Assembly: GCA_033239445.1 (NCBI GenBank)
Contig: GCA_033239445.1_3953.1
Strand: one strand, 5' to 3'
DNA from: a phage
DNA: 64,000 bases
This document shows, piece by piece, positions 33,025-47,356 of this stretch; positions within the stretch are counted from its first letter, which is position 1, and every line of letters starts with the position of its first letter. The notes under the pieces are model-generated. The model was not told the DNA's origin, searched no databases, and worked only from the letters and a program-made list of their open reading frames with translations. The position numbers and the translations under genes were made by a program.

Positions 33025-33068
33025 CTTTTTATCTCTCTCAAAGTGGGGCTTTTCAGCCCCTAAAGTTG

Positions 33069-33968
33069 TTATTCAATATTTGCTACGGTCACTTGTGAGA
33101 AGTGGGAAAGACCACGGTCTTTTTCATCCCCTAGTGAGTTTGTAGTGTAGATATGGTCGATACCATTGTCAAGGAGATTTTCAACACCTTTAGAGAAAAT
33201 CCCATGAGTAACATAAAGCTCTACACGTTCTGCTCCAGCTTCACGAAGATACTTTGCAGCCTCGATAAAGGTTCGACCACCATCACAGATATCATCCAGA
33301 ATCATAACAGTCTTACCTGTTAAGTCTACATCATCAAGGATGCGCATACCAGTGATTTCACCAGTTTTCAGGTTTCGTACCTTCGCCATTGTAATATAAG
33401 GTTTCTCAACCTCTTTAGCAGCCTCTTCAGTCTTCTTAGCTGCACCTGCATCTGGAGCCACTAAGTAATCAATACGTGGGTCACTTGCAAAGTGGACTGC
33501 TGCCTCTTTTTGAGGGAGGTTGTAGAAGCTCTTAAACAAATTCTCTGCAACATTACTGTGAGTATCCAGAGCACATACTGCATCGAACTCCATAGCATTT
33601 ACAAGATTTGCAAAGACTTTAAGTGCTGCTGAATCACCTTTAAACATGTGACGGTCATAGCGAGCATTTGGTAAGAATCCAAAAAGAACAGTTTTCATGG
33701 TTGCTTTCTGAGGAATCAAGCGGTCAATAGCCTCTTTAGCCATAGCCAATGCAAAGAGTGTGTCTTTGTCATAACCTTGTACAGTGAAGATAACATTTTC
33801 AATCTTACCAGCAGCATGTTCAACAAAGCCTACTAAGTCTTCTGAGAAGTTACCACCAATCTCCCCAGAAGGGAACTGGATAATGTTGAAGGTCTCTTGA
33901 TGAGAACCTTTGGAATTTGAATTAAGTAGAACTCGAATAGTAGTTTTCATAATATATCTCTCAGTCAA
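33069..33968 (-). CDS. prs: ribose-phosphate pyrophosphokinase family protein (PRPP synthetase-like; could be an ADP-ribose pyrophosphokinase of the Adps type)
   Basis: 299 aa; FPSGE near N-terminus, VAPDAGAAKK, and PRPP-binding loop VMILDDICDGGRTF. Confidence 0.75.
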   Translation of the reverse strand: MTERYIMKTTIRVLLNSNSKGSHQETFNIIQFPSGEIGGNFSEDLVGFVEHAAGKIENVIFTVQGYDKDTLFALAMAKEAIDRLIPQKATMKTVLFGFLPNARYDRHMFKGDSAALKVFANLVNAMEFDAVCALDTHSNVAENLFKSFYNLPQKEAAVHFASDPRIDYLVAPDAGAAKKTEEAAKEVEKPYITMAKVRNLKTGEITGMRILDDVDLTGKTVMILDDICDGGRTFIEAAKYLREAGAERVELYVTHGIFSKGVENLLDNGIDHIYTTNSLGDEKDRGLSHFSQVTVANIE

Positions 33969-34266
33969 AAGTTACAAATGTTACAGCCATAGCTGATTTA
34001 CATTTCTTTGGGTCTACAATGTGGTAGATAACTGAACAGTTTCCTGTTCCGTCTGGTACTGGTTTTGTCCAAGTACGTTCAATATTTGGCTCTCCAAACT
34101 CTTTATAGAATCCGTTGGAGTAGTGGTCTATCATCTCAATAGCAAGTGCATCTGGGACGTGACCACGTATCATATACATCTCACTACCATTTCCAGCTTC
34201 ACTAATAAGCTCTTTGATATCCCATTGTTCTCTAGCCATGATAAGTTGCCTCATAAACTGTCTCAA
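33961..34266 (-). CDS. hypothetical protein
   Basis: 101 aa ORF. Confidence 0.45.
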   Translation of the reverse strand: MRQFMRQLIMAREQWDIKELISEAGNGSEMYMIRGHVPDALAIEMIDHYSNGFYKEFGEPNIERTWTKPVPDGTGNCSVIYHIVDPKKCKSAMAVTFVTFD

Positions 34267-34747
34267 GCTTCAACAAGAGTGATATTGCCAGAACTGCATA
34301 TTCCCTGTCAAGCATTGGTGGCATATTATTTTTGAGATATGCTTTCTGTTCCTCCCAAGTCATCTTAGGGGCTTCTGGAAGCTTCTCTCCCTGCTTCTGG
34401 TTATCTTCTTGAGTCTGGATAAACCAGTTCGAGCAATGGTGCTCTCCACCTTTTGTCACGGGCTTATGGTGGCCTAATGTGAAAGCTTTCTTTCCAGAAT
34501 ATCTACAAAGCTTATTAAGGGTTGCAATAGTGTTCTTGACAACGCAGTATTCATAGAGGTTGTCAATAGTGTAATGAGGGTAGTACTGAAACAAGGCACT
34601 ATCACGGAACTTACCACGATTCCAAAGCACCATGTGATTAGAATTTGAAGGGTCATACTGATGTGACTCGATGAACTCTTGACGCTCATCAAAATCAAGA
34701 CGAAGAACAGACATTGCAGCAGCACGTTTCAGATTTGAATGGTACAT
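34232..34747 (-). CDS. possible HNH-family nuclease
   Basis: 171 aa; LGHHKPVTKGGEHHCSNW resembles an HNH core (HH ... P ... KGG ... N). Confidence 0.35.
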   Translation of the reverse strand: MYHSNLKRAAAMSVLRLDFDERQEFIESHQYDPSNSNHMVLWNRGKFRDSALFQYYPHYTIDNLYEYCVVKNTIATLNKLCRYSGKKAFTLGHHKPVTKGGEHHCSNWFIQTQEDNQKQGEKLPEAPKMTWEEQKAYLKNNMPPMLDREYAVLAISLLLKLETVYEATYHG

Positions 34748-34761
34748 GATTTCTCCAAAAT

Positions 34762-34785
34762 AAAAAGGGAACCTTTTACAGTTCC
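34762..34785 (-). terminator. rho-independent terminator (minus strand)
   Basis: On the minus strand gggaac-tgtaaaagg-ttccc followed by TTTTTTATTTT. Confidence 0.6.
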
Positions 34786-34799
34786 CTAATCATATACGC

Positions 34800-35111
34800 T
34801 TACTGAGCTATTTTCAAGACTTTTAAGAAACCTTCCTCGCCAATTGCATCATAAACGTTTTCAGTTGGCTTGATAAGGTTGTTCAAGCATACAATTTTCT
34901 TACGCTTCTTGTCATAAGTAAGCTTCAGTTGTTTCAACTCTTTGTCATCTTCAGGGTGCTCATTGTACATCTTCACAGCTTCTTTGAAGCTAATGTAGCC
35001 ACCACCTAAAGTAAGGAAACCTGTACCACAATAGTGGGAGTTGTGTTTATCAGCCATAAACTGGCACAGGATAGAAATCTGAATTTTACGAGTGTTATAA
35101 ATCTTTTCCAT
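34800..35111 (-). CDS. hypothetical protein
   Basis: 103 aa ORF. Confidence 0.5.
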   Translation of the reverse strand: MEKIYNTRKIQISILCQFMADKHNSHYCGTGFLTLGGGYISFKEAVKMYNEHPEDDKELKQLKLTYDKKRKKIVCLNNLIKPTENVYDAIGEEGFLKVLKIAQ

Positions 35112-35122
35112 TTTAATAATCC

Positions 35123-35380
35123 TTACTTGCTACGTTTACGGTTGCGAGCTTTTTTAGCTGCACGTTTAATTGCTGCTGCACCAGTTTGGCGATGAGCTTG
35201 CTTCTTACCACCTTTACCACGTCCAACATGGATGTAAGGTTGCTGTTCAATCTGGCTTGCAAGAACCTGTGCAACTGCTGAAGCGTCTACTCCAACCTGC
35301 TTACCAGTCATTGAAACGATAGCTGCTGCTTTTGCCAGAGCTGCTAAGAAACCTGCTTTCATGTTTGAAAAAATTCCCAT
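35123..35380 (-). CDS. small basic hypothetical protein
   Basis: 85 aa; lysine/arginine-rich C-terminus. Confidence 0.45.
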   Translation of the reverse strand: MGIFSNMKAGFLAALAKAAAIVSMTGKQVGVDASAVAQVLASQIEQQPYIHVGRGKGGKKQAHRQTGAAAIKRAAKKARNRKRSK

Positions 35381-35395
35381 TTTAATATCTCTCTT

Positions 35396-35653
35396 TTAAA
35401 GTTTAATACAGAACTGTTTTAGTTCTTCTTCTGTTACGGAAATTACTTTGTCATCTTCAACAATATTTGTTGCGTAGAAGTTTGACATGTGTGACTTATA
35501 TTTTACTCTGAAAACTTCAACTTCTGCAAGCTTTTTTAAAGCGTCTAGTCCGGTTGTATCAAAAAGACTCTTTGTGTACTTCTGCCAATCTTCAAGAGTG
35601 TTAGGGTTAACCTTATACTCTCCAAACAGTGAGCTATTGCAATAGATGGTCAT
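35396..35653 (-). CDS. hypothetical protein
   Basis: ORF-track frame 35396-35794 trimmed to internal ATG at 35653 (SD ggtgag) to remove overlap with nrdG. Confidence 0.4.
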   Translation of the reverse strand: MTIYCNSSLFGEYKVNPNTLEDWQKYTKSLFDTTGLDALKKLAEVEVFRVKYKSHMSNFYATNIVEDDKVISVTEEELKQFCIKL

Positions 35654-35678
35654 AATCTCACCTCTTTGAAAACCCGCT

Positions 35679-36170
35679 CTATTCTGCTCTCCATTGACAG
35701 TCGCCTTGCCAGCCATATTCTTTTCTCCAAAGTATTTGATTGTCAGACCCACGATACGGTTTGTGTGTCGGTTTAGAAGCATCATACTTACCATCTATTA
35801 CCACGTCAACATATTTCATCACTTCTAAGTTAATTTTTTCATGTAGTTGGTAACCTGTCCATAACCAGATAGACTTGTCTGGGTATACGGTTTTAATCCG
35901 CTTACAGATATTTGTTACTGTCTGAACATTCCTATCATCAAGTGGTTCTCCACCAAGGATAGATAGACCACTGATTCCATCATCATTCATTATCTGCATA
36001 ATGCCATAAAGGTTTGCATAAGTAAACTCTTTACCAGCATTAAACTTCCAAGATTCCTTGTTAAAGCAACCTTCACAGTGATGTTTGCAGCCAGCTACAA
36101 AAAGACTGACACGAGCACCTTCACCGTTCGCTGTATCGAATTTTCGTATTTCCATGTAGTTCATTAGCAC
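35679..36170 (-). CDS. nrdG: anaerobic ribonucleotide reductase activating protein (radical SAM)
   Basis: 163 aa; CKHHCEGC cluster in the N-terminal region; directly downstream of nrdD. Confidence 0.85.
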   Translation of the reverse strand: MLMNYMEIRKFDTANGEGARVSLFVAGCKHHCEGCFNKESWKFNAGKEFTYANLYGIMQIMNDDGISGLSILGGEPLDDRNVQTVTNICKRIKTVYPDKSIWLWTGYQLHEKINLEVMKYVDVVIDGKYDASKPTHKPYRGSDNQILWRKEYGWQGDCQWRAE

Positions 36171-36556
36171 ACCTCAACTTCAAAACTTACATGTTTTGTG
36201 ACGTACTCTTCACAATGCTCTTTAATAAATTCCTGAAGCAGTTCATCTTCCTGAGCACGAGTCATCAAAGCAACATACTTTGGATTCATTGTTTGCTGAA
36301 TACTGTAGAAAGACATGTCACCAATTTCTGTACCATATGAATCTGACCATGTTCCAGTTACTACTAAGACTTTATCACTCAACTCCGTAGGGAGTTCAAT
36401 GTCATCATCCTTTGCGTCATCAATAACAGAGTCAGTTATTAAAAGAGTACATGCTATGTAAAACTCTGAGTATTTTCTGTGGGTTTTCTCACAAGAGCCA
36501 CACTCTAAAGCATAGTCTTTAAGCCAGTTCATTTGATTTTTATTTAATTTAGTCAT
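36164..36556 (-). CDS. hypothetical protein
   Basis: 130 aa ORF. Confidence 0.5.
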   Translation of the reverse strand: MTKLNKNQMNWLKDYALECGSCEKTHRKYSEFYIACTLLITDSVIDDAKDDDIELPTELSDKVLVVTGTWSDSYGTEIGDMSFYSIQQTMNPKYVALMTRAQEDELLQEFIKEHCEEYVTKHVSFEVEVC

Positions 36557-36652
36557 TTCTCTTTCCTTTCAATGTGTTGTATAAAAGCCCTAACAAGAAA
36601 CCTAGTAAGACAGAGCCTACTAAGGTGACTAACAAGAATGTCTTAATCATCA

Positions 36653-36910
36653 TCAATACCACCATATTGTTTGGTTGTTATCACAAACATACAGGTACTC
36701 TGTCCCGATTTGTGGGACGATGATTGTAGTGTTGCCTGATATGACTGTCATATAGTATAGGTAATTTCTACTCTGTGACGTTTGCTGACAATGGTTTGCA
36801 GTCATCCAAAGCTTAGTGTGGTAACTGTCATACACAGCAAAACCTATCAGAATTACTAATGCAATCCCAAGAAACCATAACCAAAATTTAGGCCAAAAAT
36901 CATAGCTCAT
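36653..36910 (-). CDS. small hypothetical membrane protein
   Basis: 85 aa; hydrophobic segment WLWFLGIALVILIGFAVY. Confidence 0.45.
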   Translation of the reverse strand: MSYDFWPKFWLWFLGIALVILIGFAVYDSYHTKLWMTANHCQQTSQSRNYLYYMTVISGNTTIIVPQIGTEYLYVCDNNQTIWWY

Positions 36911-36979
36911 ACGTTAATTCCATACTCAATAAAAAAGGTGATGTAAGCCTATCAAGACCTACACCACCTTGTCAACTAC

Positions 36980-39124
36980 TTACATAGATTTTCTATCCTG
37001 AATTTCAGCAATTTTTGCATCGTTCATTCTGGAAGTACCTTTAATCTTAGTCCAGCCAAGATAACCACAAACACGGTTAATCACAGAGATATCGTGTGAG
37101 TTGCACTTAGGACACAATTCAACATCTGCACTTGGACGGTGACCACAATTCTCACAGATTGCCAAGTCAAAGTTAACACCTTGATAGAAACCTTTACCCA
37201 TACCTCTTGTCACACAAGCCCTAATAGCTTTATGATTCTCTGGATTAGCAATACGAACGTACTGGATATGACCACCATTACAAGCATGGAAGAAAGGTTC
37301 TTCTAAGTCTTGCTTTTCAAATGGTGTAATATCTGCACCAACATTCATGTGGAAGCTGTTTGTAAAGTATTCTTTATCAGATACACCTTTAACAACTCCA
37401 AACATGTTTCTAAACTGCTTCAATTGCGTACCACAAAGGCTCTCAGCAGGTGTACCATAGAGGGCATACAAGAAACCATCTTCCTGTTTAAACTGCTCCA
37501 GTTTGCCATTCAGGTAGTTTAAAACCTTACTTGCAATATCACCGTCTGACTCATGTAATCTCTTACCTTGTGCAAGGACTGTCAACTCATCCAATGCAGT
37601 GACACCGAAAGAGGCTGTAAAAGACTTCACAGTATCCCAACCAATCTTGTCAGTTGGCTTCTTATGACCTTTATACAAACCACCTTGTGTGAATGCCAGA
37701 GGGTTAGAACTTGCTGGCATATTAGCAATCATCTCATAACGCTTTTTATGGAAGCTTCTAATCATCTCAAGATACTTGTCAAGTTCTGTCCAGAAGTCTA
37801 AACCATTCTCTTCAGAATACTTGTAAATCATTGGCAGATTAAGAGATACTGCACCGATATTTGCTCGCCCTGTGTAGAACTCTTTACCATCTTCATCATG
37901 ATATGGAGATAAGAAAGCTCTGCAACCCATTGGAGAGATGACTGCACCTGAACGCTCAAAAGCTTCTGCAACAGAACCATGACCAGAAACACTTAAGAAG
38001 TCTGGGTACATAGCTTTAGAACAGCACTCAATAGCTTTGTCATAAAGAGTTCCCTGCCAAGGGTCTAACATGTGTCTTGTTTCATCATAGATGTAAACCA
38101 GTTTAGGGAATACAACAGGCTTCTTAGATTTACCTTGACCATTCATTCTCACATCAAGAATAGTCTTCGCAATCATAAATTGCAAGCGGTTATCTTCACT
38201 AGCCATATCTGGTTCGAGTAAACCAAATGTTAAGGTTGTGAATGCAAAGTCACCACGGCTGCAAGGAACTGTATTCAGTTTCATTTCCAGAGATTGGAAG
38301 CCTTGGGTTAGCTCAATCTGAAGTTGTTCTTTAGCATAGTGGTATGCACCACCTCTCCCTGTGATATTATACTGCTTTGCTTTTTCCAGATGATACTCAA
38401 AAGACTTCTTAGCATATGGCACAAGAACCTTGTCAATCTCTGGGATAGTGAACCCACCAAACTGCTGTGCAGTTGCTGAGAGTACAACGTCACCAATAAC
38501 CTGTAAAGCTGAAAGTACAGACTTTGGTTCACAGTATTCAATGCCGGACATTTCAAAACCACCTTTCAAGACACTTCCAATGTCAAACAGGCAACAGTTA
38601 ATACCACCGAAGATTAAATCTCTTAAGTCATGGATATAAATGAACCCATCTTCAATAGCACTTGCTTCTTCTGGTGTCAAGTGATACTGCTTAAAGATTT
38701 CTTTTGTCAAATATCCACGGATGATTGAACCTTTTGTAGAGATTAAGCTACTATCAAAGTTAGCATTCTCACGGTCACCTAAGAAGAGTGTGTCTTTAGT
38801 TTTCTGGTAAAGTTCATCCCAATTCTGTGCAACCTCTTTACGATAGTTTCTGTAGGTTGAATATGACTCATAGATTTCATGGTTTATCTCTGCCAGAGTT
38901 CCTTCCACAATACTGTGAACATCATCTACAGAGATGAGCATAGCATTCTGATTAGTTGCTCTGACAAGCAGTCTCATAAAGGCTGATTCAAGAGCATGGA
39001 TAACTTCTAGTGGTAACTCTTTGTAGCCAACTCTATTAGCTGACTTGGTAACTGCTTCGACGATTTTATTTACATTTGGTTTTTCCAGTGAACCGTCTTT
39101 CTTAATAATTTGTACTTTAACCAT
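36980..39124 (-). CDS. nrdD: anaerobic ribonucleoside-triphosphate reductase
   Basis: ATP-cone N-terminus, C-terminal zinc ribbon CENCGH ... CPKC and glycyl-radical motif RVCGYLG; start trimmed to ATG at 39124 with SD aggag. Confidence 0.9.
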   Translation of the reverse strand: MVKVQIIKKDGSLEKPNVNKIVEAVTKSANRVGYKELPLEVIHALESAFMRLLVRATNQNAMLISVDDVHSIVEGTLAEINHEIYESYSTYRNYRKEVAQNWDELYQKTKDTLFLGDRENANFDSSLISTKGSIIRGYLTKEIFKQYHLTPEEASAIEDGFIYIHDLRDLIFGGINCCLFDIGSVLKGGFEMSGIEYCEPKSVLSALQVIGDVVLSATAQQFGGFTIPEIDKVLVPYAKKSFEYHLEKAKQYNITGRGGAYHYAKEQLQIELTQGFQSLEMKLNTVPCSRGDFAFTTLTFGLLEPDMASEDNRLQFMIAKTILDVRMNGQGKSKKPVVFPKLVYIYDETRHMLDPWQGTLYDKAIECCSKAMYPDFLSVSGHGSVAEAFERSGAVISPMGCRAFLSPYHDEDGKEFYTGRANIGAVSLNLPMIYKYSEENGLDFWTELDKYLEMIRSFHKKRYEMIANMPASSNPLAFTQGGLYKGHKKPTDKIGWDTVKSFTASFGVTALDELTVLAQGKRLHESDGDIASKVLNYLNGKLEQFKQEDGFLYALYGTPAESLCGTQLKQFRNMFGVVKGVSDKEYFTNSFHMNVGADITPFEKQDLEEPFFHACNGGHIQYVRIANPENHKAIRACVTRGMGKGFYQGVNFDLAICENCGHRPSADVELCPKCNSHDISVINRVCGYLGWTKIKGTSRMNDAKIAEIQDRKSM

Positions 39125-39139
39125 TCTGACTCCTAATGC

Positions 39140-39163
39140 GAAAAAGGTCTCCGAAGAGACCCT
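39140..39163 (-). terminator. rho-independent terminator (minus strand)
   Basis: On the minus strand gggtctc-ttcg-gagacc followed by TTTTT. Confidence 0.65.
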
Positions 39164-39173
39164 TATATTAATT

Positions 39174-39374
39174 CTACTTATAAAACTTTTCAATAAGCTT
39201 TTTAAGCTTTCCGCTCAAATCATGTTTGATATCTAATATCTCAAAGATAACCCATACTAGCATAGCTCCAAAGAGAGCACCTTGTTTTAAATCAGTAAAC
39301 AGACTAGTAACCATGAATGCCAGAGCAATCATCGGAGCATCTTCAACAAAACCATCCCATAAACGTTTAAGCAT
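39174..39374 (-). CDS. small hypothetical membrane protein
   Basis: 66 aa; two hydrophobic segments. Confidence 0.45.
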   Translation of the reverse strand: MLKRLWDGFVEDAPMIALAFMVTSLFTDLKQGALFGAMLVWVIFEILDIKHDLSGKLKKLIEKFYK

Positions 39375-39609
39375 TATTCACCTCTGCCATAAAGTTCTGT
39401 AGTGTTCCAACAGGTTTCATTTCATTGTCTTCAACCTTCATAATAAAAGGCATCTGACGAACAGGTATCTTTGCAATATCCATCAGGTCACTTAGCTCAT
39501 AATCTTTCCCAAGCATTCTTACAACATGGTCTAATCCACGAGCCTGAGCAAAGTTCTTAGCAGTCACACACTGTGGGCAGCCATCTTTTGAGTAAATTAC
39601 ATAAGTCAT
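39367..39609 (-). CDS. nrdH: glutaredoxin/NrdH-like redoxin
   Basis: 80 aa; CPQC active site near the N-terminus; adjacent to nrdB. Confidence 0.8.
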   Translation of the reverse strand: MTYVIYSKDGCPQCVTAKNFAQARGLDHVVRMLGKDYELSDLMDIAKIPVRQMPFIMKVEDNEMKPVGTLQNFMAEVNNA

Positions 39610-40682
39610 TAAGGAACCTCTAAAAATCCTGAATTTAAATCATCAACAACAGTATTCAAAAGATACGCACCATTTTGTTGTTCTTGGTTAGCGTTTTGCT
39701 CTTTATCAATTTCCATCTTCTTAATCATATATTTCAAAGGTGGTTCTTTAGGAGCTACAAAGTCTCTTGGAATACCAAACATATCATACAATGGAGCAGC
39801 GTTGTAGTAAACCCATTCGTGAAGAAGTTTTGTATTCAAACCTACAACAGCACGTCCTTCAGAGAAGATATAATAAGACCATTTCTCTTCACTTTCAACT
39901 ACTTCATCCAGAATTACTTTAATTTCTGGGAGTACTTGACGGAAAGCTTCTTGCCACTCTTCATCTTTCAAAGTTTCTTTTAATGCTTCGATATCAATCT
40001 TTGTGTGAATGATTTCGTCAAGCATAATTTTCTGTACTGCTTGTGCAATCCCTTGGAATTTATCTTGTGCATCAAGTGCAAAGGTACATGCAAAGGATGC
40101 CATGAAGGAAATACCCTCAAGTGCTGTTACTGCAAAGAGACCTTTTAAGATTACTTTGTGGAAGTGTAAAGGGTCTTTCTCCATTAACTCTTGACGAACA
40201 TAGCTTAAACGATAGTTAATACCTTCGTCAAGTAATTCTGCCAGTGCTCTGTTCACAGTCTTCAATCTGTCCTGAACAGCAGCATTCTGGTTAATCTCAT
40301 CAAGGATTGTTTCAGGGTTCTTGATACACTGACGGACAATCTCTGAATAAGTTAGTGCATGAAGGTTCTCAATTTCTGATTGCTTCATGATAGCAGTTGC
40401 ATAGATATCATCAGAGATGAACGGTGCAAATGCAAAAGCTAAACTCTTAGCAACCTGTGTATCTGCTTCCCATTGCCATTTCAGAATCTCAAGCATTACA
40501 CCAGACATTGATTGAGGGACACTCTCAAAGTCTAAACGTGACTGTTCAAATGGGAACTCCTCTTCAGACCAGTCTTGTGCTTTCTGCTGCTTATACAGTT
40601 CAAAGATTTTTGGATAGTGTTTATTCAGTGAATCGAAAGTTTTTCGTTCACCGCCTAAGAAAATTGGATGTGGATTAATCAT
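39609..40682 (-). CDS. nrdB: ribonucleotide reductase class Ia small subunit
   Basis: 357 aa; ferritin-like diiron motifs (LEGISFMASFA, LDEIIHT); immediately downstream of nrdA. Confidence 0.85.
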   Translation of the reverse strand: MINPHPIFLGGERKTFDSLNKHYPKIFELYKQQKAQDWSEEEFPFEQSRLDFESVPQSMSGVMLEILKWQWEADTQVAKSLAFAFAPFISDDIYATAIMKQSEIENLHALTYSEIVRQCIKNPETILDEINQNAAVQDRLKTVNRALAELLDEGINYRLSYVRQELMEKDPLHFHKVILKGLFAVTALEGISFMASFACTFALDAQDKFQGIAQAVQKIMLDEIIHTKIDIEALKETLKDEEWQEAFRQVLPEIKVILDEVVESEEKWSYYIFSEGRAVVGLNTKLLHEWVYYNAAPLYDMFGIPRDFVAPKEPPLKYMIKKMEIDKEQNANQEQQNGAYLLNTVVDDLNSGFLEVP

Positions 40683-41062
40683 TCTGGTAAGATTCCTGTA
40701 TCTAGAAAGTTTCTGGCTTCAGTTGTTGTCATAACAACCCATCTGTCCTTGTTGAACATATCAAGTGGCCTTGCATATGTTTGCTTTGGATTAAAACAAT
40801 CAACATATCGTATATGTTCTTTCCAAGAACCATCTGGCATCTTAACTTTTAAGTCTAAGTCTGCAATATAATACAAAGACCGTCTTGGAATATAAAATAA
40901 ATATAGTGAGTTATCTTTACTACGTATTCTCGCATTGCGAATTAAATCTAGCATACCTTTCTCCAAGTTAATTTTAGAGGGTCTTTTACGACCCTCATAG
41001 TTATTCAAACTAAACGCCGCAACCCTCACAGTAGGCATCTTGTAGTGCTGATTTACCAACAC
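40679..41062 (-). CDS. hypothetical protein between nrdA and nrdB
   Basis: 127 aa ORF overlapping the nrdA 3-prime end; no recognisable nuclease motif. Confidence 0.35.
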   Translation of the reverse strand: MLVNQHYKMPTVRVAAFSLNNYEGRKRPSKINLEKGMLDLIRNARIRSKDNSLYLFYIPRRSLYYIADLDLKVKMPDGSWKEHIRYVDCFNPKQTYARPLDMFNKDRWVVMTTTEARNFLDTGILPE

Positions 41063-43244
41063 CGATACGGCTGTTCAGGTAGTACATAGTTTTCAAACCA
41101 ACAAGGTTTGCATAAATCATGTACTTCAAAGCTTGCTCTAATGATACCTTCTTAGACCTCGAGTAGTCAACATAGAAATCTGAAGAGATAGCTTGACCAG
41201 TGAATTTTTGAACAATTGCATAGCAATCAATCATATCAAATGTGTCAATATCCCAAGCAATTTCATATACATACTTCAACTCTTCATAATCAGGTACAAT
41301 AAACAGAACGTTACCAGTTGCAGACTTCTTAGTTAAGATGAAGTCACGAATAGGGTATAGGCCGTTTGTCGTGTTAGTTGCCAGAGAAGAACTCTCATTA
41401 GGCATGTAAGCCTCTAACACAGAGTTACGGATACCTCCATTTTCCTTGATTCGCTGTGACAGGTCATCCCAATCATAACGAAGTTTTGCATCGTGCTTTT
41501 CATCAATTTTCTTGTTAGCAGTCTTTGGTGGAACCCAACCGTCAGGGTACTTAGTAAACTGCATGTACTCTGGTACACCACGCTCTTTTGCGAGTCTTAA
41601 AGATGCTTCATGCAAGAAGTAAGAGTGCATCTCAGCCAACTCATGAAGTTTAGTTTTACCAGCCCTTGATGAGTAGTTCACATAGTTCTTCGCAAGGTAA
41701 TGGGCCACATTAGTAAGACCAATACCAACAGAACGACGTTTCTGAACATGGTTACGCATTGACGGATACGGATAATCCATAAGGTCAATAACGGAGTCAA
41801 CCATTGCAAGAGCATAATAAGCAACGTCAGCGTATTCATCTTCTGTGATTCTCCCTGCAACCAAACTAGCTAGGAAGCAAAGAGCAACTTCACCGTCTTC
41901 TTTCTTGGCTGTGTAGCTATACAGGTCTCTTTCATCCTCAAAACCATGAACTGGTAAGACAATCTCCATACACAGGTTTGACATTTTCAAAGGCTCTTTG
42001 AAAGGTGTATGATAGTTTGCGTTGTTAGTAAAGAACGGGTAAACACGTCCTGTAGCATAACGTTGTTGAATAAACAACTTGGCAACTTCACGAGCCTTCA
42101 CACGTTTATGTTTAACACCTGTATGAACTGCGTGACCTACTGCCATAGCAAATTCATCAGCACTTGCTGTGTAGAACATGTCATACAGTCTTGGTGCATC
42201 TTTGTAAGAGAATAGCAACCAATCTGTATCGTACTGTACACATTGCCAGAAGTAATCATTTGCACCAAATGAGTAATCCATTTCATTAATACGTTTTGCA
42301 GTAACCGTTGTAGGGTGCTTCAAGCGTAGCAAATCCTCAATCTGTGGGTCTAATGCAGTGAAGAAGTTATTAGCTGAACCACCACGACTCTTCTGCTTAT
42401 TAGCCTCTACAGCAGCACGTACAAGCTTATAATAAGGGAGTTTTCCCATATGCTCAATAGTGTTTTGTCGGATTCCATCACCAATTGTTCTGGTCTCCAT
42501 CAGCATACCAATACCTGCTTGCTTAGTGGTCATGTCATAAGCTACTTTTGTAGCAATGCCAAGAGATTCAGCAGTATCATTTGCTTTAATTAGGCAGCAT
42601 GAAGCATAGCCAGATTTTGTAGCTCTCAGACCATTCAGATACGGTGTAGGAGCATTAATCTTCAGGTCAGATAGATATGTGTAGAGTTTAATAACATCAT
42701 CTAAACGACGCTGTTTAGGCTGTCTTTCAAAGGCTTTCATAGCCATACCCATGAACATAAACTGTGGAGACTCAAATAGCTTACCACTTTTAATGTCACG
42801 GATTCCATACTTATCACGGAACTGCTTCAGTACTGCATACCCATAAGAGATATCTTTTGAATGTACGATGTGACCTTGTAAGTAGTCAATCTCTTCAGGT
42901 GTGTAATCCATATGTTCCCAAAGCCCCATCTGCTCCATCTTCATCACAAATGGAAGTAACTGAGGAACCTTTGTAAATCCACCAAAAGCTTCTTTGTAGA
43001 TAATGCCAAGAAGTAGTCTCCCAGCCATATCAGAGTACTCTTGAGTTTGCTTATCAATACAAACGTCAATCATAGCTTGGTGCATTTCTTTTGTTGTACA
43101 ACCTTCATAAACACGCTTCATAGCTTCCATTACAACTTCTGACCAGATAATTCCTCTCTTGTCAGCCCATGAAGCCCATTTATTTAAACGTTCTGGTTCG
43201 AATGGTACGATTGTACCGTCTGATTTGCGAATAGTAGTAATCAT
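41010..43244 (-). CDS. nrdA: ribonucleotide reductase class Ia large subunit
   Basis: 744 aa; N-terminal ATP-cone (ITTIRKSDGTIVPFEPERL), C-terminal cysteine pair CEGCG. Confidence 0.9.
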   Translation of the reverse strand: MITTIRKSDGTIVPFEPERLNKWASWADKRGIIWSEVVMEAMKRVYEGCTTKEMHQAMIDVCIDKQTQEYSDMAGRLLLGIIYKEAFGGFTKVPQLLPFVMKMEQMGLWEHMDYTPEEIDYLQGHIVHSKDISYGYAVLKQFRDKYGIRDIKSGKLFESPQFMFMGMAMKAFERQPKQRRLDDVIKLYTYLSDLKINAPTPYLNGLRATKSGYASCCLIKANDTAESLGIATKVAYDMTTKQAGIGMLMETRTIGDGIRQNTIEHMGKLPYYKLVRAAVEANKQKSRGGSANNFFTALDPQIEDLLRLKHPTTVTAKRINEMDYSFGANDYFWQCVQYDTDWLLFSYKDAPRLYDMFYTASADEFAMAVGHAVHTGVKHKRVKAREVAKLFIQQRYATGRVYPFFTNNANYHTPFKEPLKMSNLCMEIVLPVHGFEDERDLYSYTAKKEDGEVALCFLASLVAGRITEDEYADVAYYALAMVDSVIDLMDYPYPSMRNHVQKRRSVGIGLTNVAHYLAKNYVNYSSRAGKTKLHELAEMHSYFLHEASLRLAKERGVPEYMQFTKYPDGWVPPKTANKKIDEKHDAKLRYDWDDLSQRIKENGGIRNSVLEAYMPNESSSLATNTTNGLYPIRDFILTKKSATGNVLFIVPDYEELKYVYEIAWDIDTFDMIDCYAIVQKFTGQAISSDFYVDYSRSKKVSLEQALKYMIYANLVGLKTMYYLNSRIGVGKSALQDAYCEGCGV

Positions 43245-43267
43245 TATATTAAATCCTACAGGTGAAA

Positions 43268-43290
43268 AAGGGTCTCCGAAGAGACCCCTT
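43268..43290 (-). terminator. rho-independent terminator (minus strand)
   Basis: On the minus strand ggggtctc-ttcg-gagaccc followed by TTTTTCAC. Confidence 0.65.
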
Positions 43291-43295
43291 AGAGA

Positions 43296-43631
43296 TTAAA
43301 TGCTAAAAATCTTTTTACTTTCCCAGAGTTCAATGAACTTCTGTGACACTTTTGTTAGTGAACCTTTAGACATTGTATTCATGTACCAGTAACGTTTACC
43401 TTCATCGAATGCCATGTCAAGTTTCTCACTAATATCTTCTTCAAGTCTTGCAATTGAAAAGTTACCACGTACTTTGCAGACAACTCGTCCAAATTTGATA
43501 TCGCTGCGACCTTTGCAATCTTCAGTGTACATTACAAAGTCACCATGATGTAATGTCTCACCAAACTTATCATTGCCTAGTTCTTCACCAGCTTTGATTT
43601 CTTCTTTAGTTAACTTTTTAATTTTAGACAT
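43296..43631 (-). CDS. hypothetical protein
   Basis: 111 aa ORF. Confidence 0.5.
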   Translation of the reverse strand: MSKIKKLTKEEIKAGEELGNDKFGETLHHGDFVMYTEDCKGRSDIKFGRVVCKVRGNFSIARLEEDISEKLDMAFDEGKRYWYMNTMSKGSLTKVSQKFIELWESKKIFSI

Positions 43632-43950
43632 GATATCTATCCAAGTTTCGTTTCAAGTAAATCCACTGGTCATCTGTGCGCTCTACACCCATGAACAGGG
43701 GGGCTACAACAACTTTACCAAAAGTATTTCTGTGCTGGCAAATCTCGTAAGAGTACGGTTTATCAATATTTAAGCCATACTTATACAACACTGCTGCTAA
43801 TACTTGTTCATTATCCAGAATCGTTTCTGGCTTCTCTCCGTACTTGTCTAACAGTGAATCATTCATAAACACTGTCATAGAGAGATTGTAGTTGGAGAAG
43901 TGGCTTTTTGCCACCACTTCTTCACATTTATTAATGTTCTGTGAATCCAT
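43624..43950 (-). CDS. hypothetical protein
   Basis: 108 aa ORF. Confidence 0.5.
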   Translation of the reverse strand: MDSQNINKCEEVVAKSHFSNYNLSMTVFMNDSLLDKYGEKPETILDNEQVLAAVLYKYGLNIDKPYSYEICQHRNTFGKVVVAPLFMGVERTDDQWIYLKRNLDRYHV

Positions 43951-44686
43951 TATAACCGACTCCTTTCAACCACTGCTTGAGGTTGATTGCATCATAATTC
44001 AATTTCGGATATGAGGTTACATGGAACTTCTCACCATCATAGTACACAATATCCGCAAGCCATAATCCATTCTCACGGCAGAAGTCTTTATCTGCTTTTG
44101 AAGAGATTGGTTCAACTTTAGAAAAGTTTTTAATGCCAAGACTACCAAGACTTCCAATCAGCCCTTGGCAGATAACGCATGTGTCAGATGTTACCACAAA
44201 TAATTCTTTTGCGTCAACTTCTGCAATAAAACTTTCAAGTTGAACTTTTGGAAGATTAGACTGCTTCATAATCTTACCATCAGACTTGCGAATAATCGCA
44301 AACCACTCTTTACCTTCAATAATTGATTGACGCAGGTAACATTCATCACCAGTACGTTTCTCAATATCAAACATTCGCTGTAAAGCTTCTTGATAGTCGT
44401 CTGTGTATTTGAGGTTGTTGTTTTCACAAACAACCTTGATAGCACCATCATGGTCATGTTGTGTCAGGAAAATTAAACCATCAAGTACATACTGCAAATC
44501 AGCTTGAGCATCAAGGGTCTCAACAGGGTCTTTGGCTTCTACTGCTGCAACTAGCTCTCTAGCTTCTTCAAGCATACACAGAGACTGACTTTTCAGTGAT
44601 TCCCAATACTCTGTGCTGTATGGTTCTTTTGGATTATTGCCACAACGTAGATTCCAATTTCTTACGGATTCTCTGGAATTAAACAT
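43931..44686 (-). CDS. hypothetical protein (weak resemblance to MazG-like NTP pyrophosphohydrolase N-terminally)
   Basis: 251 aa; helical N-terminal half with acidic E/D pattern; function guess is weak. Confidence 0.5.
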   Translation of the reverse strand: MFNSRESVRNWNLRCGNNPKEPYSTEYWESLKSQSLCMLEEARELVAAVEAKDPVETLDAQADLQYVLDGLIFLTQHDHDGAIKVVCENNNLKYTDDYQEALQRMFDIEKRTGDECYLRQSIIEGKEWFAIIRKSDGKIMKQSNLPKVQLESFIAEVDAKELFVVTSDTCVICQGLIGSLGSLGIKNFSKVEPISSKADKDFCRENGLWLADIVYYDGEKFHVTSYPKLNYDAINLKQWLKGVGYNGFTEH

Positions 44687-44916
44687 TAAGCCTCCTTATC
44701 TTCAAACAACTTTTGTTGAGACTCAATATAGTCCATTCGTTCTTTGAGTTCAACACGTTTGCTTAACAGATGTTGAATTTGTGATTCCAGAGCATCCATC
44801 TCAGCTTCTGTAGCTGACTTAGCTTTACTGATAGTTTCCTTCAGTGCTGCTACACCACTCTGGATTTTAGAAACATGGTCATTTTTGATTTTATTAAACA
44901 TTTTAAACTCTCTCAT
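44686..44916 (-). CDS. small hypothetical protein
   Basis: 76 aa; coiled-coil-like. Confidence 0.4.
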   Translation of the reverse strand: MREFKMFNKIKNDHVSKIQSGVAALKETISKAKSATEAEMDALESQIQHLLSKRVELKERMDYIESQQKLFEDKEA

Positions 44917-45403
44917 TAAGTTTCATGATTTTAGTGATTCTCTTCTCAGCTTCATCATAAGTCTCTTTTGTAAGAAACTTGATTGCTGCAATGTTCGCAT
45001 TGTAGAAGAGTCGAAGCTTAGAGTCAATCCTTTTTGTCATGACGTCAAACTTATGTTGTAGGTTAGCTTCGCCATAAACTAAGCCACCTCGCGTATAGTA
45101 AGTCTGGATGATGTAGAAGTCAAACTCTTTTTCACCAAAAGATTCAATATCCTTCTTAATGTACTCAGAAGATGTTTGGTAAGTCATCCAATCACTTTCT
45201 TTTGTCACGACTTTACGTCTGGTCTTTCCAGCAACCTTTTTCTTAGTGACGTTATTAAATTGTTTCTTTCCAATATAATATTGTCCAGTTTTCTTACAGT
45301 ATACTAAATAGACAAAACCAAAATAGTTAGCGGGGTTAATTTCCCCGCACAGTGAAACCCAATGTCCATAAACAGGGCAATTTCCAAATCCTTTAATCTT
45401 CAT
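44903..45403 (-). CDS. possible GIY-YIG domain nuclease
   Basis: 166 aa; VYLVYCKKTGQYYIGKK resembles the GIY ... YIG motif pair. Confidence 0.4.
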   Translation of the reverse strand: MKIKGFGNCPVYGHWVSLCGEINPANYFGFVYLVYCKKTGQYYIGKKQFNNVTKKKVAGKTRRKVVTKESDWMTYQTSSEYIKKDIESFGEKEFDFYIIQTYYTRGGLVYGEANLQHKFDVMTKRIDSKLRLFYNANIAAIKFLTKETYDEAEKRITKIMKLNERV

Positions 45404-46460
45404 TCATAACTGGCTCCCAATTGTATTTTTTAAACGTAAAATCATCTTTAGGATTTCGTTCTTGATAAGCAATCCAGAAGTGTTGCTCCATTAATTCTAG
45501 TGGAGTTCTTGTCACAATCTGACCATCCCACGATTCATAAGTGTATGACTCTTTCTTAGCATAAAGCTCATAGATTGCGTCTAAGCACTCTTTGTAGGTA
45601 GTTTTACCTTCCAGTGCATTCATCACCGCAACCTTACCAGCACCTTTTAAACCGAAGTAGTTGTCTGCATTATCACCTGCTACAGCTTGATAGCAGAGGA
45701 ATTTAAAACCTACTCCGACTGTCTTCTTAGCTTTCGGTTTAGATTTGATAGGGCAATCCCAAATCTCACCAACGTTATTATCTGCAATGAAAATTAATGG
45801 AGCTTTCTCATAAGTCATATCAATACAGTAAGTTCCTTCAGCTTGACGAAGGTCTTTATCAATACTCATCAGAGCAGCTTTTTTACCCATCTTCTCAGCT
45901 TTTGCAATAACGATAGAGTCTGCTTCGAAGCCCCCTTTTAGGAGCTTAAACTCTGGTCGTGACAGAAGATACTCACGACAAGCAACTAGGTGTGTAGGTG
46001 TTACAGCTTCTTTTCTGTTACCTTGGTATTGGTGTTCAAGACCTTTGATATCCTTGTGTTTATGAACACCTTTCTCAGTAAGGTAACCCATCCATTTGCG
46101 TTCTTTACCAACGACTTTCAACCACTCCTGAAGAACTTGCTGTGTAGCCATAATTGCTTCAGCTTCACTCTTAGCCTCCTTCCAAGTCTGTCTTTCCCAT
46201 TCATCTTCATCAAAGTCAAGTCCTAACTCTTCAGTTAAAACTCTTTGGTCAGACAGCCATTGTGCTGCCAGTTTTGCACTATCAAAAGCGTCGGATTCTT
46301 CAGCAGTGATTTTATTCACATACTTGTACTTTGCTTTTTCAACTACACAAGCACCTTTGTAAGCAATGCTATCAGAGTCAATAAAGACGTGTGTAACGCT
46401 CTCTGGGAGCTTTGTTAAGGTGTATTGTTCCATTGTACTCTCCATACGAAAAAGCCCCAT
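45393..46460 (-). CDS. 5-prime to 3-prime exonuclease / flap endonuclease (RNase H-like)
   Basis: 355 aa; helix-3-turn-helix block AVAGDNADNYFGLKGAGKVAV typical of FEN-family 5-prime nucleases. Confidence 0.75.
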   Translation of the reverse strand: MGLFRMESTMEQYTLTKLPESVTHVFIDSDSIAYKGACVVEKAKYKYVNKITAEESDAFDSAKLAAQWLSDQRVLTEELGLDFDEDEWERQTWKEAKSEAEAIMATQQVLQEWLKVVGKERKWMGYLTEKGVHKHKDIKGLEHQYQGNRKEAVTPTHLVACREYLLSRPEFKLLKGGFEADSIVIAKAEKMGKKAALMSIDKDLRQAEGTYCIDMTYEKAPLIFIADNNVGEIWDCPIKSKPKAKKTVGVGFKFLCYQAVAGDNADNYFGLKGAGKVAVMNALEGKTTYKECLDAIYELYAKKESYTYESWDGQIVTRTPLELMEQHFWIAYQERNPKDDFTFKKYNWEPVMNED

Positions 46461-46495: not shown

Positions 46496-47356
46496 TTACT
46501 CGTCGTCAGTTTCGAAATCATCTTCGTCGTCATCATCTGGGTTTGGCAGGTCGTCGTCATCGTCATCACCACCTTTACCTTCATCACCAGAATCTTTTGC
46601 ATCTTCTTCAGTGATTTCACCGTTGTCTTCAACACCTGCAAGACCAAGCATTGCCAGTTCATCTTCATCCAGTTCAGTCTCAGTAGCACCACCAGTACCA
46701 CCAGTGTAAGGAACCAGAGTATCAATGATAAATTGTTCCTGAATTGGCTTGGTCAGAACGTTACCTTCAAATGTGTAGAAGTGAGTCGCCAGAATCACAC
46801 TACCAAATGAGCCGTTACCAACTGCAATATCTGGATGAATTACATCGTAAGTCTTATCATCATCGTGCTTATCAGATTTTGCTGCCTTGATTTTCTTCAT
46901 AGGCTGCTTAACTGCAACACGCTTACCGTTGATTTCTTCAACCAGCATTACAGGGAAACTCTGTTTTGCTGACCACACAGCACCGTCTTTATATGCTGCT
47001 GAACGGCTAACCTTCAGGATGTGATAGGTGTCAGCTTCAAACGGAGGCTCACAACCAAACTTCTCTTCGAAGTCATCTGCATCAACAGCCTCTGTAGTAA
47101 CTTTATCCCAACCTTCAGGACTCTTTTTAGACTTGGTGAACTCTTTAAAGAGCTTGTTACCATCTTTTGCCAGAATTGAAACGCTGTAGTTACAATCTTT
47201 GCCCGGAAAATGCTTATCCACAGATTTACCCTTTTGAGGGCGTGGAATAGTGTTCAGGTAATAGAACCAAACATCTTTCAGCAGGTAACGCAGAGTCTCA
47301 CGTTCTTGACCATTGTACTTCTCTACCGGAGCTTTCATTTTAACAACTTTAGACAT
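46496..47356 (-). CDS. possible single-stranded DNA-binding protein with acidic C-terminal tail
   Basis: 286 aa; C-terminus GGDDDDDDLPNPDDDDEDDFETDDE, reminiscent of T7 gp2.5-type tails. Confidence 0.45.
   Translation of the reverse strand: MSKVVKMKAPVEKYNGQERETLRYLLKDVWFYYLNTIPRPQKGKSVDKHFPGKDCNYSVSILAKDGNKLFKEFTKSKKSPEGWDKVTTEAVDADDFEEKFGCEPPFEADTYHILKVSRSAAYKDGAVWSAKQSFPVMLVEEINGKRVAVKQPMKKIKAAKSDKHDDDKTYDVIHPDIAVGNGSFGSVILATHFYTFEGNVLTKPIQEQFIIDTLVPYTGGTGGATETELDEDELAMLGLAGVEDNGEITEEDAKDSGDEGKGGDDDDDDLPNPDDDDEDDFETDDE

What the first reader, a model, noticed from the sequence alone, without database searches (positions are those of the whole stretch)
34232..45403. Candidate small nucleases and an unassigned ORF at the nrdA-nrdB junction
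An HNH-like motif (34232-34747), a GIY-YIG-like motif (44903-45403) and an unassigned 127-aa ORF wedged between nrdA and nrdB (40679-41062) sit among the replication and RNR genes. The nrdA-nrdB junction is a known insertion site for homing endonucleases in other large phages, so these may be mobile elements.
Basis: inference. Interest (0 to 1): 0.4.

Follow-up and report, generated by a model that had tools for sequence, protein, structure and literature searches.

The report
Resident nuclease-like genes, not mobile elements
The three small genes flagged among the nucleotide-metabolism genes of this FelixO1/Moogle-type phage are fixed, conserved residents of the phage family, whereas the truly mobile homing-endonuclease genes of this family sit at neighbouring gene junctions in relatives and are absent from this genome.

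Summary
The window is a Mooglevirus (Ounavirinae) phage, 99% identical to Escherichia phage 3HA14 and Shigella phages Sf13-17. All three ORFs exist.

- ORF B (44903-45403) is a clear GIY-YIG nuclease domain (Pfam SegE_GIY-YIG, E=2e-27). It lacks the roughly 240-aa C-terminal region of real Seg-type homing enzymes.
- ORF A (34232-34747) is a divergent but probable HNH nuclease.
- The nrdA-nrdB ORF is really 91 aa (40679-40954). It has a DUF1653-like Tudor/SH3-type barrel and no nuclease features.

None behaves as a mobile element. Each is present at the same place in about 300 relatives and is under purifying selection (dN/dS 0.04-0.18). B is the best-conserved gene of the block (64% identity to an Erwinia phage, against 50-56% for NrdA/NrdB).

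The real mobile genes are HNH_3+AP2 and HNH+NUMOD3 endonucleases. In relatives they sit at the nadV|prs junction, the exo|B junction and the cassette downstream of nrdD. The exo|B site is occupied in about 37% of sampled genomes and is flanked by co-conversion tracts. This window carries the empty alleles.

Two exceptions: A is replaced by a DNA methylase in five genomes, and the nrdA-nrdB ORF is missing from that junction in Kolesnikvirus and rV5-like phages.

Verdict: ordinary, low interest.

The parts
34232..34747 (-). ORF A, 171 aa: N-terminal helical region plus a divergent HNH (beta-beta-alpha-Me) core. It is the first gene after a terminator-like hairpin (34766-34787) and is followed by orf92, prs and nadV.
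   Evidence: universal in Ounavirinae and Phapecoctavirus
34388..34483 (-). HNH core of ORF A (residues 89-120), containing the invariant H93, GG100-101, HH103-104, N107 and DN115-116
44903..45403 (-). ORF B, 166 aa: GIY-YIG catalytic domain only (phrog_447, often mislabelled 'NAD synthetase'). Its start overlaps the 3' end of the exonuclease gene by 11 nt.
44990..45337 (-). SegE-type GIY-YIG domain of ORF B (residues 23-138)
   Evidence: PF19835, profile positions 12-123 of 123
40679..40954 (-). ORF C, 91 aa: DUF1653-like Tudor/SH3-type beta-barrel protein. Its stop overlaps the nrdB start (ATGA).
40977..40996 (-).
45404..45423 (-). Empty homing site at the exonuclease|B junction. Sf14, Sf16, Henu11, Moogle, FelixO1 and about 37% of sampled relatives carry a roughly 500-nt HNH_3+AP2 gene here.
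33025..33068 (-). Empty site at the nadV|prs junction. FelixO1 ORF128 is an HNH_3+AP2 gene here (Pfam); Moogle gp6 and the SUSP1 gene at this site are annotated HNH endonucleases.
41010..43244 (-). nrdA (flanking gene, 93% aa identity to FelixO1)
39609..40682 (-). nrdB (flanking gene, 95% aa identity to FelixO1)
45393..46433 (-). 5'-3' exonuclease / flap-endonuclease-like gene immediately upstream of ORF B

Best explanation
The three ORFs are vertically inherited resident genes of the early nucleotide-metabolism and replication block of Ounavirinae phages. They are not active mobile elements.

ORF B is a GIY-YIG catalytic domain of the Seg type with no separate DNA-binding region. It always follows the 5'-3' exonuclease gene. 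Inference: it acts as a non-homing DNA nuclease in phage DNA metabolism, either degrading host DNA (as the domain-only GIY-YIG enzyme T4 endonuclease II does) or processing replication and recombination intermediates.

ORF A is a divergent HNH-type nuclease with conserved catalytic-position residues. It heads the A-orf92-prs-nadV gene group. It is nearly universal but dispensable.

ORF C is a small DUF1653-like beta-barrel protein. It sits between the nrdA 3' hairpin with its ribosome-binding site and nrdB, and its stop codon overlaps the nrdB start. It is probably a binding or adaptor protein rather than an enzyme.

The genuine homing endonuclease genes of this phage group (HNH_3+AP2, HNH+NUMOD3) occupy intergenic junctions next to these genes in relatives. 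This genome carries the unoccupied alleles.

Shown: family assignments, fixed positions, selection, empty versus occupied junctions, and co-conversion tracts. Inferred: all biochemical activities and biological roles.
For: Identity of the phage: 99% identity to 3HA14 and Sf13-17 over 14 kb.

Fixed position:
- A, B and C lie in colinear blocks in 3HA14, Moogle, Mordin, Henu11, Sf14, Sf17, SUSP1 and FelixO1.
- tblastn finds A in 429 records, B in 816 and C in 322. The Ounavirinae counts by host name match those of the DNA-level search.
- 302 records carry B next to the exonuclease gene.

Conservation (aa identity to FelixO1 / Erwinia phage M7):
- B 83% / 64%; A 78% / 52%.
- NrdA 93% / 56%; NrdB 95% / 50%; exonuclease 89% / 54%.

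Selection: dN/dS is 0.04-0.11 for A, 0.05-0.08 for B and 0.08-0.18 for C.

Architecture: B is 166 aa with the GIY-YIG domain at residues 23-138. A related homing enzyme in STP4-a has the same domain plus about 240 further residues.

True homing endonuclease genes in relatives:
- Pfam HNH_3+AP2 in Sf14 gp075, FelixO1 ORF106 and ORF128, Henu11 gp14 and Moogle gp26; NUMOD3 plus a colicin/pyocin-type (HNH-family) DNase match in the SUSP1 gene.
- No homologue of any of these anywhere in the 64-kb window.
- The exo|B junction is occupied in 19 of 51 evenly sampled genomes.
- Occupied Sf14 shows 29 differences in window 45240-45401 and 17 in 45426-45603. Empty Sf17 shows only 5-6 per 600 nt.

ORF C:
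- AF2 model with pLDDT 95.7.
- 8 of 16 family members weakly hit Pfam DUF1653.
- GGAG plus ATG at 40954, and the ATGA overlap with nrdB.
Against: - No activity has been tested for any of the three proteins.
- Overlap with the upstream gene is also typical of free-standing T4 homing endonucleases, so it does not by itself argue against mobility.
- The wider B family appears at unrelated positions in other phages, for example between tail genes in Stenotrophomonas phage Yut2 and as a split gene in P-HM2. This fits a mobile ancestry.
- C sits at a different locus in Kolesnikvirus, and there it is more similar to the window copy (45%) than the syntenic FelixO1 copy is (33%). It has therefore moved or been exchanged at some time.
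- Presence across all roughly 300 genomes was inferred from counts and samples, not from a genome-by-genome table.
Confidence: 0.72

Rival explanations
1. A and/or B are still active free-standing homing endonucleases that have swept to fixation in the subfamily. They now persist by excluding markers of phages that lack them.
For: - Both carry nuclease catalytic motifs with conserved residues.
- B belongs to the Seg-type GIY-YIG family.
- B's 11-nt overlap with the upstream gene resembles T4 segF and mobA.
- B-family members sit at scattered positions in unrelated phages.
Against: - No empty allele was seen among about 300 relatives, apart from methylase replacement of A in five genomes and the FO1a deletion.
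- B has no DNA-recognition region, unlike the 361-aa relative in STP4-a.
- B is the most conserved protein of the block out to Kolesnikvirus, and dN/dS is 0.05-0.08. This is unlike selfish genes, which decay after fixation.
- The co-conversion tracts at the B locus track the neighbouring HNH_3+AP2 gene, not B.
Confidence: 0.1
2. ORF C is an accessory subunit or regulator of the class Ia ribonucleotide reductase, co-expressed with NrdB.
For: - It lies between nrdA and nrdB in Felixounavirus, Mooglevirus and Suspvirus.
- Its stop overlaps the nrdB start.
- A glutaredoxin gene follows in the same gene row.
Against: - In Kolesnikvirus, nrdA and nrdB are adjacent and the homologue lies 2 kb away.
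- In Vibrio phage F96 the homologue follows a nuclease and DNA polymerase, with no RNR gene in the 10 kb fetched.
- rV5-like phages with related nrdAB have no such ORF.
- C is only 33% identical to the FelixO1 copy, while NrdA and NrdB are 93-95% identical. That is hard to reconcile with a tight partner.
Confidence: 0.15
3. ORF C binds host RNA polymerase or single-stranded nucleic acid through its Tudor-like barrel, as CarD, the Mfd RNAP-interacting domain or WYL domains do. It would then be a host-takeover factor.
For: - It diverges quickly between genera, as host-interaction genes often do.
Against: - There is no sequence similarity to these families.
- The function of DUF1653 is itself unknown.
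Confidence: 0.1
4. One or more of the ORFs is a non-coding chance frame.
For: - The first 36 codons of the 127-codon frame are probably not translated.
- A and C have no Pfam hit.
Against: - Strong PHROG matches: A 3e-93, B 2e-47, C 6e-33.
- dN/dS well below 1.
- A high-confidence fold for C.
- Conserved motifs.
Confidence: 0.02

Closest known systems
T4 Seg proteins (SegA-G), free-standing GIY-YIG homing endonucleases; Pfam PF19835 SegE_GIY-YIG
   Same: ORF B has the same catalytic domain (E=2e-27), with conserved GIY/YIG tyrosines and the acidic/Asn positions.
   Different: - B has no C-terminal DNA-binding region: 166 aa against 361 aa in the STP4-a relative.
- It is present in every relative, strongly conserved, and always next to the exonuclease gene.
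T4 endonuclease II (DenA), a domain-only GIY-YIG nuclease that nicks host DNA (own knowledge)
   Same: Small GIY-YIG protein without a separate DNA-binding domain, encoded among nucleotide-metabolism genes. This is the best functional analogy for B.
   Different: No detectable sequence similarity: no solved GIY-YIG structure, T4 endonuclease II included, was hit at E<=10. The role in host DNA breakdown is untested here.
[quoted passage not shown]
   Same: Same genomic niche as ORF C, and co-expressed with the RNR genes.
   Different: C is 91 aa with a DUF1653-like barrel and no nuclease motif. It is fixed in three genera.
HNH_3+AP2 free-standing homing endonucleases of FelixO1-like phages (FelixO1 ORF106 and ORF128, Sf14 gp075)
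   Different: They are unrelated in sequence to A, B and C and are absent from the window.
DUF1653 (Pfam PF07866; PDB 3be3)
   Same: - The motif pattern Y-PR..Y...K..G-W..Y...Y-RP..F...W is shared.
   Different: - The window protein does not reach any Pfam threshold; only 8 of 16 relatives give weak hits.
- C has extra N- and C-terminal helices.
HNH nuclease domain of the Cas9/IscB and Pfam PF01844 type
   Same: The H...N...N core with GG after the first His and a predicted beta-beta-alpha element. Weak hits to the IscB HNH region and to Pfam HNH.
   Different: - No zinc-binding cysteines.
- A conserved 85-residue N-terminal region of unknown function.
- All scores are far below family cut-offs.

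Membership tests
GIY-YIG nuclease superfamily, SegE-type domain (PF19835) - ORF B | Profile score above Pfam's gathering threshold | tested here: met
   96.2 bits against a cut-off of 25, E=2.1e-27, profile positions 12-123 of 123
GIY-YIG nuclease superfamily, SegE-type domain (PF19835) - ORF B | Conserved GIY and YIG tyrosines and a downstream acidic metal ligand | tested here: met
   Y32, Y43, G45, E112 and N114 are invariant in 12 sequences down to 47% identity. Assigning them to catalytic roles is by analogy.
Free-standing homing endonuclease (functional class) - ORF B | A DNA-binding region attached to the nuclease domain | tested here: not met
   Only 28 residues follow the domain. The STP4-a relative has about 240.
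Free-standing homing endonuclease (functional class) - ORFs A, B, C | Sporadic presence/absence among close relatives at an otherwise conserved junction | tested here: not met
   Present in all eight relatives examined gene by gene, and counts match the subfamily. Exceptions: A is replaced by a methylase in 5 genomes and truncated in FO1a; C is absent from the junction only at genus level and beyond.
Free-standing homing endonuclease (functional class) - ORFs A, B, C | Co-conversion tracts centred on the gene | tested here: not met
   The tracts at the B locus appear only in genomes carrying the adjacent HNH_3+AP2 gene.
Free-standing homing endonuclease (functional class) - ORFs A, B, C | Site-specific cleavage of the allele that lacks the gene | not testable with these tools
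   Needs purified protein and substrate.
HNH (beta-beta-alpha-Me) nucleases - ORF A | Significant match to an HNH profile | tested here: inconclusive
   - No Pfam hit for the window protein.
- PHROG HNH families at 2.3e-5 and 5e-4.
- NCBIfam IscB HNH region at 5e-4, far below cut-off.
- Pfam HNH in 3 of 7 relatives, best 0.0021.
HNH (beta-beta-alpha-Me) nucleases - ORF A | Conserved His at the end of strand 1, Asn before strand 2, and His/Asn in the helix | tested here: met
   H93, N107 and N116 are invariant. Strands are predicted at 89-93 and 108-112 and a helix at 113-119.
HNH (beta-beta-alpha-Me) nucleases - ORF A | Structural match to solved HNH domains | tested here: inconclusive
   [not shown]
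DUF1653 (PF07866) - ORF C | Profile score above Pfam's threshold | tested here: not met
   No hit for the window protein; 8 of 16 relatives hit weakly, best 0.0075.
DUF1653 (PF07866) - ORF C | Same fold as the solved DUF1653 structure | tested here: met
   [not shown]
T4 MobE-like HNH endonuclease at nrdA/nrdB - ORF C | HNH motif or any nuclease-family similarity | tested here: not met
   No nuclease family in Pfam, PHROG, NCBIfam or PADLOC. The fold is a beta-barrel.

The most novel reading that the evidence does not exclude
ORF B is a domesticated Seg-type GIY-YIG nuclease that has lost its targeting region. It has become a core enzyme of the Ounavirinae DNA-metabolism machinery, working with the adjacent flap-endonuclease-like exonuclease or degrading host DNA. 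In parallel, the DUF1653-like ORF C would be a rapidly exchanged small factor that tunes RNR or host transcription. This would give a first function to the widespread 'NAD synthetase'-labelled phage family (phrog_447) and to DUF1653.
Probability: 0.3. Interest if true: 0.45.

Novelty: new member of a known kind. Interest (0 to 1): 0.2.

Why it matters
Mainly as a correction. In FelixO1/Moogle-type phages, which are used for Salmonella typing and phage therapy, a nuclease motif alone does not mark a mobile element. The real homing endonuclease genes can be told apart by junction polymorphism and co-conversion tracts.

The work also does the following:
- It flags a propagated misannotation ('NAD synthetase' for a GIY-YIG domain, and 'HNH endonuclease' for the DUF7390 neighbour).
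- It recognises the usually 'hypothetical' ORF A as a probable HNH nuclease.
- It assigns the nrdA-nrdB ORF to the DUF1653 fold.

The unusually strong conservation of the domain-only GIY-YIG protein suggests a real, untested role in phage DNA metabolism.

Tried and rejected
- Sequence and profile searches of A against PDB sequences returned staphylococcal protein A repeats. The low E-value comes from summing repeats, each with an individual E above 1, so these were rejected as spurious.
- phmmer of B and C against the PDB gave nothing meaningful.
- The word-indexed homologue search was insensitive for C, giving 3 hits. The exhaustive search found only 14 representatives, one of which (P0037, 1858 aa, 19 repeats) is a compositional artefact.
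- The afdb50 fold library was unavailable.
- PADLOC gave no defence-system link.
- Literature searches found no study of these three genes. They found only counts of HNH homing endonucleases in FelixO1 (six) and Moogle (two).
- The 127-aa version of ORF C was considered and rejected in favour of 91 aa.


Full report
**What the window is.** The region is 99% identical over 14 kb to Escherichia phage vB_EcoM_3HA14 and Shigella phages Sf13-Sf19. These belong to genus Mooglevirus, subfamily Ounavirinae, the FelixO1-like myoviruses. 282 phage records match at the DNA level. All genes between about 31 and 52 kb are on the minus strand. The gene order is nadV, prs, orf92, ORF A, DUF7390, small ORFs, nrdG, nrdD, a small ORF, glutaredoxin, nrdB, ORF C, nrdA, small ORFs, mazG, orf71, ORF B, a 5'-3' exonuclease, and then primase/helicase.

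ORF B (44903-45403, 166 aa) is unambiguously a GIY-YIG domain. It hits Pfam PF19835 SegE_GIY-YIG at 96 bits against a cut-off of 25, E=2e-27, over residues 23-138. Its PHROG family is phrog_447, a 148-position domain-only family that carries the propagated label 'NAD synthetase'.

ORF A (34232-34747, 171 aa) has no Pfam hit. It belongs to phrog_3900-series unknowns, specifically phrog_3500 (unknown function, E=3e-93), with weak hits to HNH PHROGs at 2e-5 and 5e-4. It also weakly matches the HNH region of NCBIfam IscB (5e-4). Pfam HNH is the only family hit, in 3 of 7 diverse relatives. Residues H93, GG100-101, HH103-104, N107 and DN115-116 are invariant in the family. They lie on a predicted strand-strand-helix element in a model of mean pLDDT 73.8. 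I call it a probable, divergent HNH nuclease.

The nrdA-nrdB ORF is mechanically 127 codons from GTG 41062. The nrdA stop is at 41010-41012. It is followed by a perfectly conserved hairpin (40977-40996), then GGAG (40961-40964), then ATG 40954. The apparent amino-acid conservation of the extension is explained by that hairpin. The PHROG profile and most annotations also start at this ATG. The gene is therefore 40679-40954, 91 aa, and its TGA overlaps the nrdB ATG.

- In 3HA14, Moogle, Mordin, Henu11, Sf14, Sf17, SUSP1 and FelixO1, all three genes lie in colinear aligned blocks.
- tblastn against 50,697 phage records finds A in 429, B in 816 and C in 322. Counts by host name for the Ounavirinae (Escherichia 120, Salmonella about 80, Shigella 23-24, Erwinia 29, 'Felixounavirus' 14, Citrobacter 11-13) match the DNA-level counts.
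- 302 records carry B directly beside the exonuclease gene.
- The distance across the nrdA-nrdB junction is constant (1077-1101 nt for an 1101-nt query) in every sampled Mooglevirus, Suspvirus and Felixounavirus genome.
- All three genes are under purifying selection: dN/dS is 0.04-0.11 for A, 0.05-0.08 for B and 0.08-0.18 for C.
- B is the best-conserved protein of the whole block out to the Erwinia phage M7. It is 64% identical, against 56% for NrdA, 50% for NrdB, 54% for the exonuclease and 52% for A.

This is the opposite of the sporadic, decaying pattern of selfish endonuclease genes. B also lacks any targeting region. A related Seg-type homing enzyme in Salmonella phage STP4-a has the same domain followed by about 240 residues, while B has 28.

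**Where the mobile genes really are.** Relatives carry insertions that the window lacks:
- At nadV|prs (window 33025-33068), an HNH gene in FelixO1, Moogle and SUSP1.
- At prs|orf92, two paralogous 149-aa ORFs in Mordin and Henu11.
- In the 36650-36928 cassette, an HNH+NUMOD3 gene in SUSP1.
- At exo|B (window 45404-45423), a roughly 500-nt gene in Sf14, Sf16, Henu11, Moogle and FelixO1.

Pfam identifies those tested (FelixO1 ORF106 and ORF128, Sf14 gp075, Henu11 gp14, Moogle gp26) as HNH_3+AP2 endonucleases, and the SUSP1 gene matches NUMOD3 and a colicin/pyocin-type DNase domain. No homologue of any of them exists anywhere in the 64-kb window.

In an evenly spaced sample of the 302 records, 19 of 51 full-length matches have the exo|B insertion and 32 are empty like the window. 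Sf14 (occupied) is about 98% identical to the window overall. It differs at 29 positions within window 45240-45401 and at 17 within 45426-45603. Sf17 (empty) differs at only 5-6 positions per 600 nt on either side. These are classical co-conversion tracts around a homing endonuclease gene (mechanism reviewed in PMC2988022). The variable number of HNH endonucleases in this group is already in the literature: six in FelixO1 and two in Moogle.

**Exceptions worth recording.**
- ORF A is not strictly universal. FelixO1 derivative FO1a has a deletion running from inside A to inside nadV.
- In five Felixounavirus genomes (S19cd, GEP101, SP2 SHa-2019, SP4 SHa-2019, SEP1), most of A is replaced by an N6/N4 DNA methyltransferase gene. 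A is therefore dispensable, and its locus can exchange cargo, but not in the manner of a homing endonuclease.
- ORF C is absent from the nrdA-nrdB junction in Kolesnikvirus and Hafnia phages (span about 230 nt shorter) and in rV5-like phages with related nrdAB (about 180 nt shorter).
- In Erwinia phage M7 the C homologue (gp079, 45% identity) lies 2 kb downstream, near the A homologue.
- In Vibrio phage F96 the C homologue follows a nuclease and the DNA polymerase.
- C is only 33% identical to the syntenic FelixO1 ORF113, although the flanking NrdA and NrdB are 93-95% identical. It has evidently been relocated or exchanged over long time scales.

**How it most likely works.** The following are shown: family assignments, fixed positions, purifying selection, the empty and occupied junctions, and the co-conversion tracts.

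The following are inferred:
- B acts as a resident DNA nuclease, either non-sequence-specific or structure-specific. The closest functional analogy is the domain-only GIY-YIG enzyme T4 endonuclease II. It may instead be a partner of the adjacent flap-endonuclease-like exonuclease.
- A is a second resident nuclease, expressed with the NAD-salvage genes prs and nadV from the unit that starts after the hairpin at 34766-34787.
- C is a small binding protein co-translated with NrdB.

Rivals are listed with their tests. They are a fixed but still active homing endonuclease, an RNR accessory subunit, and an RNA-polymerase or nucleic-acid binder.

**Verdict.** The mobile-element interpretation is largely not supported for the flagged ORFs, although the neighbourhood is a true homing hot spot whose elements are absent here. 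Nothing lies outside known kinds. This is a Seg-type GIY-YIG domain protein, a divergent HNH protein and a divergent DUF1653 protein, all already present (mostly as 'hypothetical' or mislabelled) in hundreds of deposited genomes. Interest is low, at 0.2. The only mildly intriguing point is the exceptional conservation of the targeting-less GIY-YIG protein.

Noticed in passing
window 40977-40996 (minus strand), just after the nrdA stop: A 7-bp hairpin with a 6-nt loop (GAGGGTC-GTAAAA-GACCCTC) is 100% conserved from Mooglevirus to FelixO1, although the ORF that follows diverges to 33% aa identity. Erwinia phage M7 has a different 7-bp/6-nt hairpin (GGGTCGG-TTAAGT-CCGACCC) at the same place before nrdB. 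It is possibly an attenuator or mRNA-stability element that sets the NrdA:NrdB ratio. It has no T-run.
   Followed up: partly
window 45240-45603; L005 (Sf14) 12709-13212: Sf14 and Henu11 carry the HNH_3+AP2 gene at the exo|B junction. They show a sharp rise in substitutions within about 170 nt on either side (up to 18% against a 1-2% background). These are co-conversion tracts that cover the first third of the GIY-YIG gene, including its GIY/YIG motifs.
   Followed up: yes
L015 (Salmonella phage S19cd) 3193-3915; also GEP101, SP2 SHa-2019, SP4 SHa-2019, SEP1: In five Felixounavirus genomes most of ORF A, and part of the following small ORF, is replaced by an N6/N4 DNA methyltransferase gene. 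Similar DNA occurs in Klebsiella phages.
   Followed up: partly
L014 (Salmonella phage FO1a) 2501-3832: FO1a has a deletion of about 2.8 kb that joins the first ~107 codons of ORF A to the remainder of nadV. It removes orf126, prs and an HNH gene. The phage is viable, so these genes are dispensable in the laboratory.
   Followed up: partly
L003 (Mordin) 1288-2216; L004 (Henu11) 1289-2217; window junction about 33947-33984: Two tandem paralogous 149-aa ORFs (phrog_29478, no Pfam domain) are inserted between prs and orf92 in Mordin and Henu11 only. This is cargo of unknown nature and does not look like an endonuclease.
   Followed up: no
window 36650-36928: This is a variable cassette. The window has an 85-aa ORF (phrog_8826, annotated as a predicted membrane protein in Sf17) with no counterpart in Moogle, SUSP1 or FelixO1. 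SUSP1 has an HNH+NUMOD3 endonuclease there. Sf17 and Mordin have an extra 183-nt ORF at 36910-36927.
   Followed up: partly
window 34800-35111 (minus strand): The neighbour of ORF A (Pfam DUF7390, phrog_4462) is annotated 'HNH endonuclease' in 3HA14 and 'putative homing endonuclease' in Sf17, but no nuclease profile supports this. ORF A, which does have the HNH motif, is annotated 'hypothetical'. One metagenomic protein (P0017, 259 aa) joins DUF7390 and A in one frame; this may be an artefact.
   Followed up: partly
window 46496-47356 (minus strand): A 286-aa protein (phrog_3877, unknown function) ends in a strongly acidic tail (...GGDDDDDDLPNPDDDDEDDFETDDE). This is reminiscent of the C-terminal tails of phage single-stranded-DNA-binding proteins.
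   Followed up: no
window 40300-41400: The nrdA-nrdB DNA is 68-69% identical to that of rV5-like phages and related large Klebsiella and Cronobacter myoviruses. This suggests a shared or exchanged RNR module across phage families.
   Followed up: no
window 34590-34715 (ORF A residues 12-53): This segment resembles the helical repeat of staphylococcal protein A (LDFDERQEFIESHQYDPSNSN against [21 protein letters not shown]). Individual matches are not significant, and the low summed E-value comes from the repeats.
   Followed up: yes
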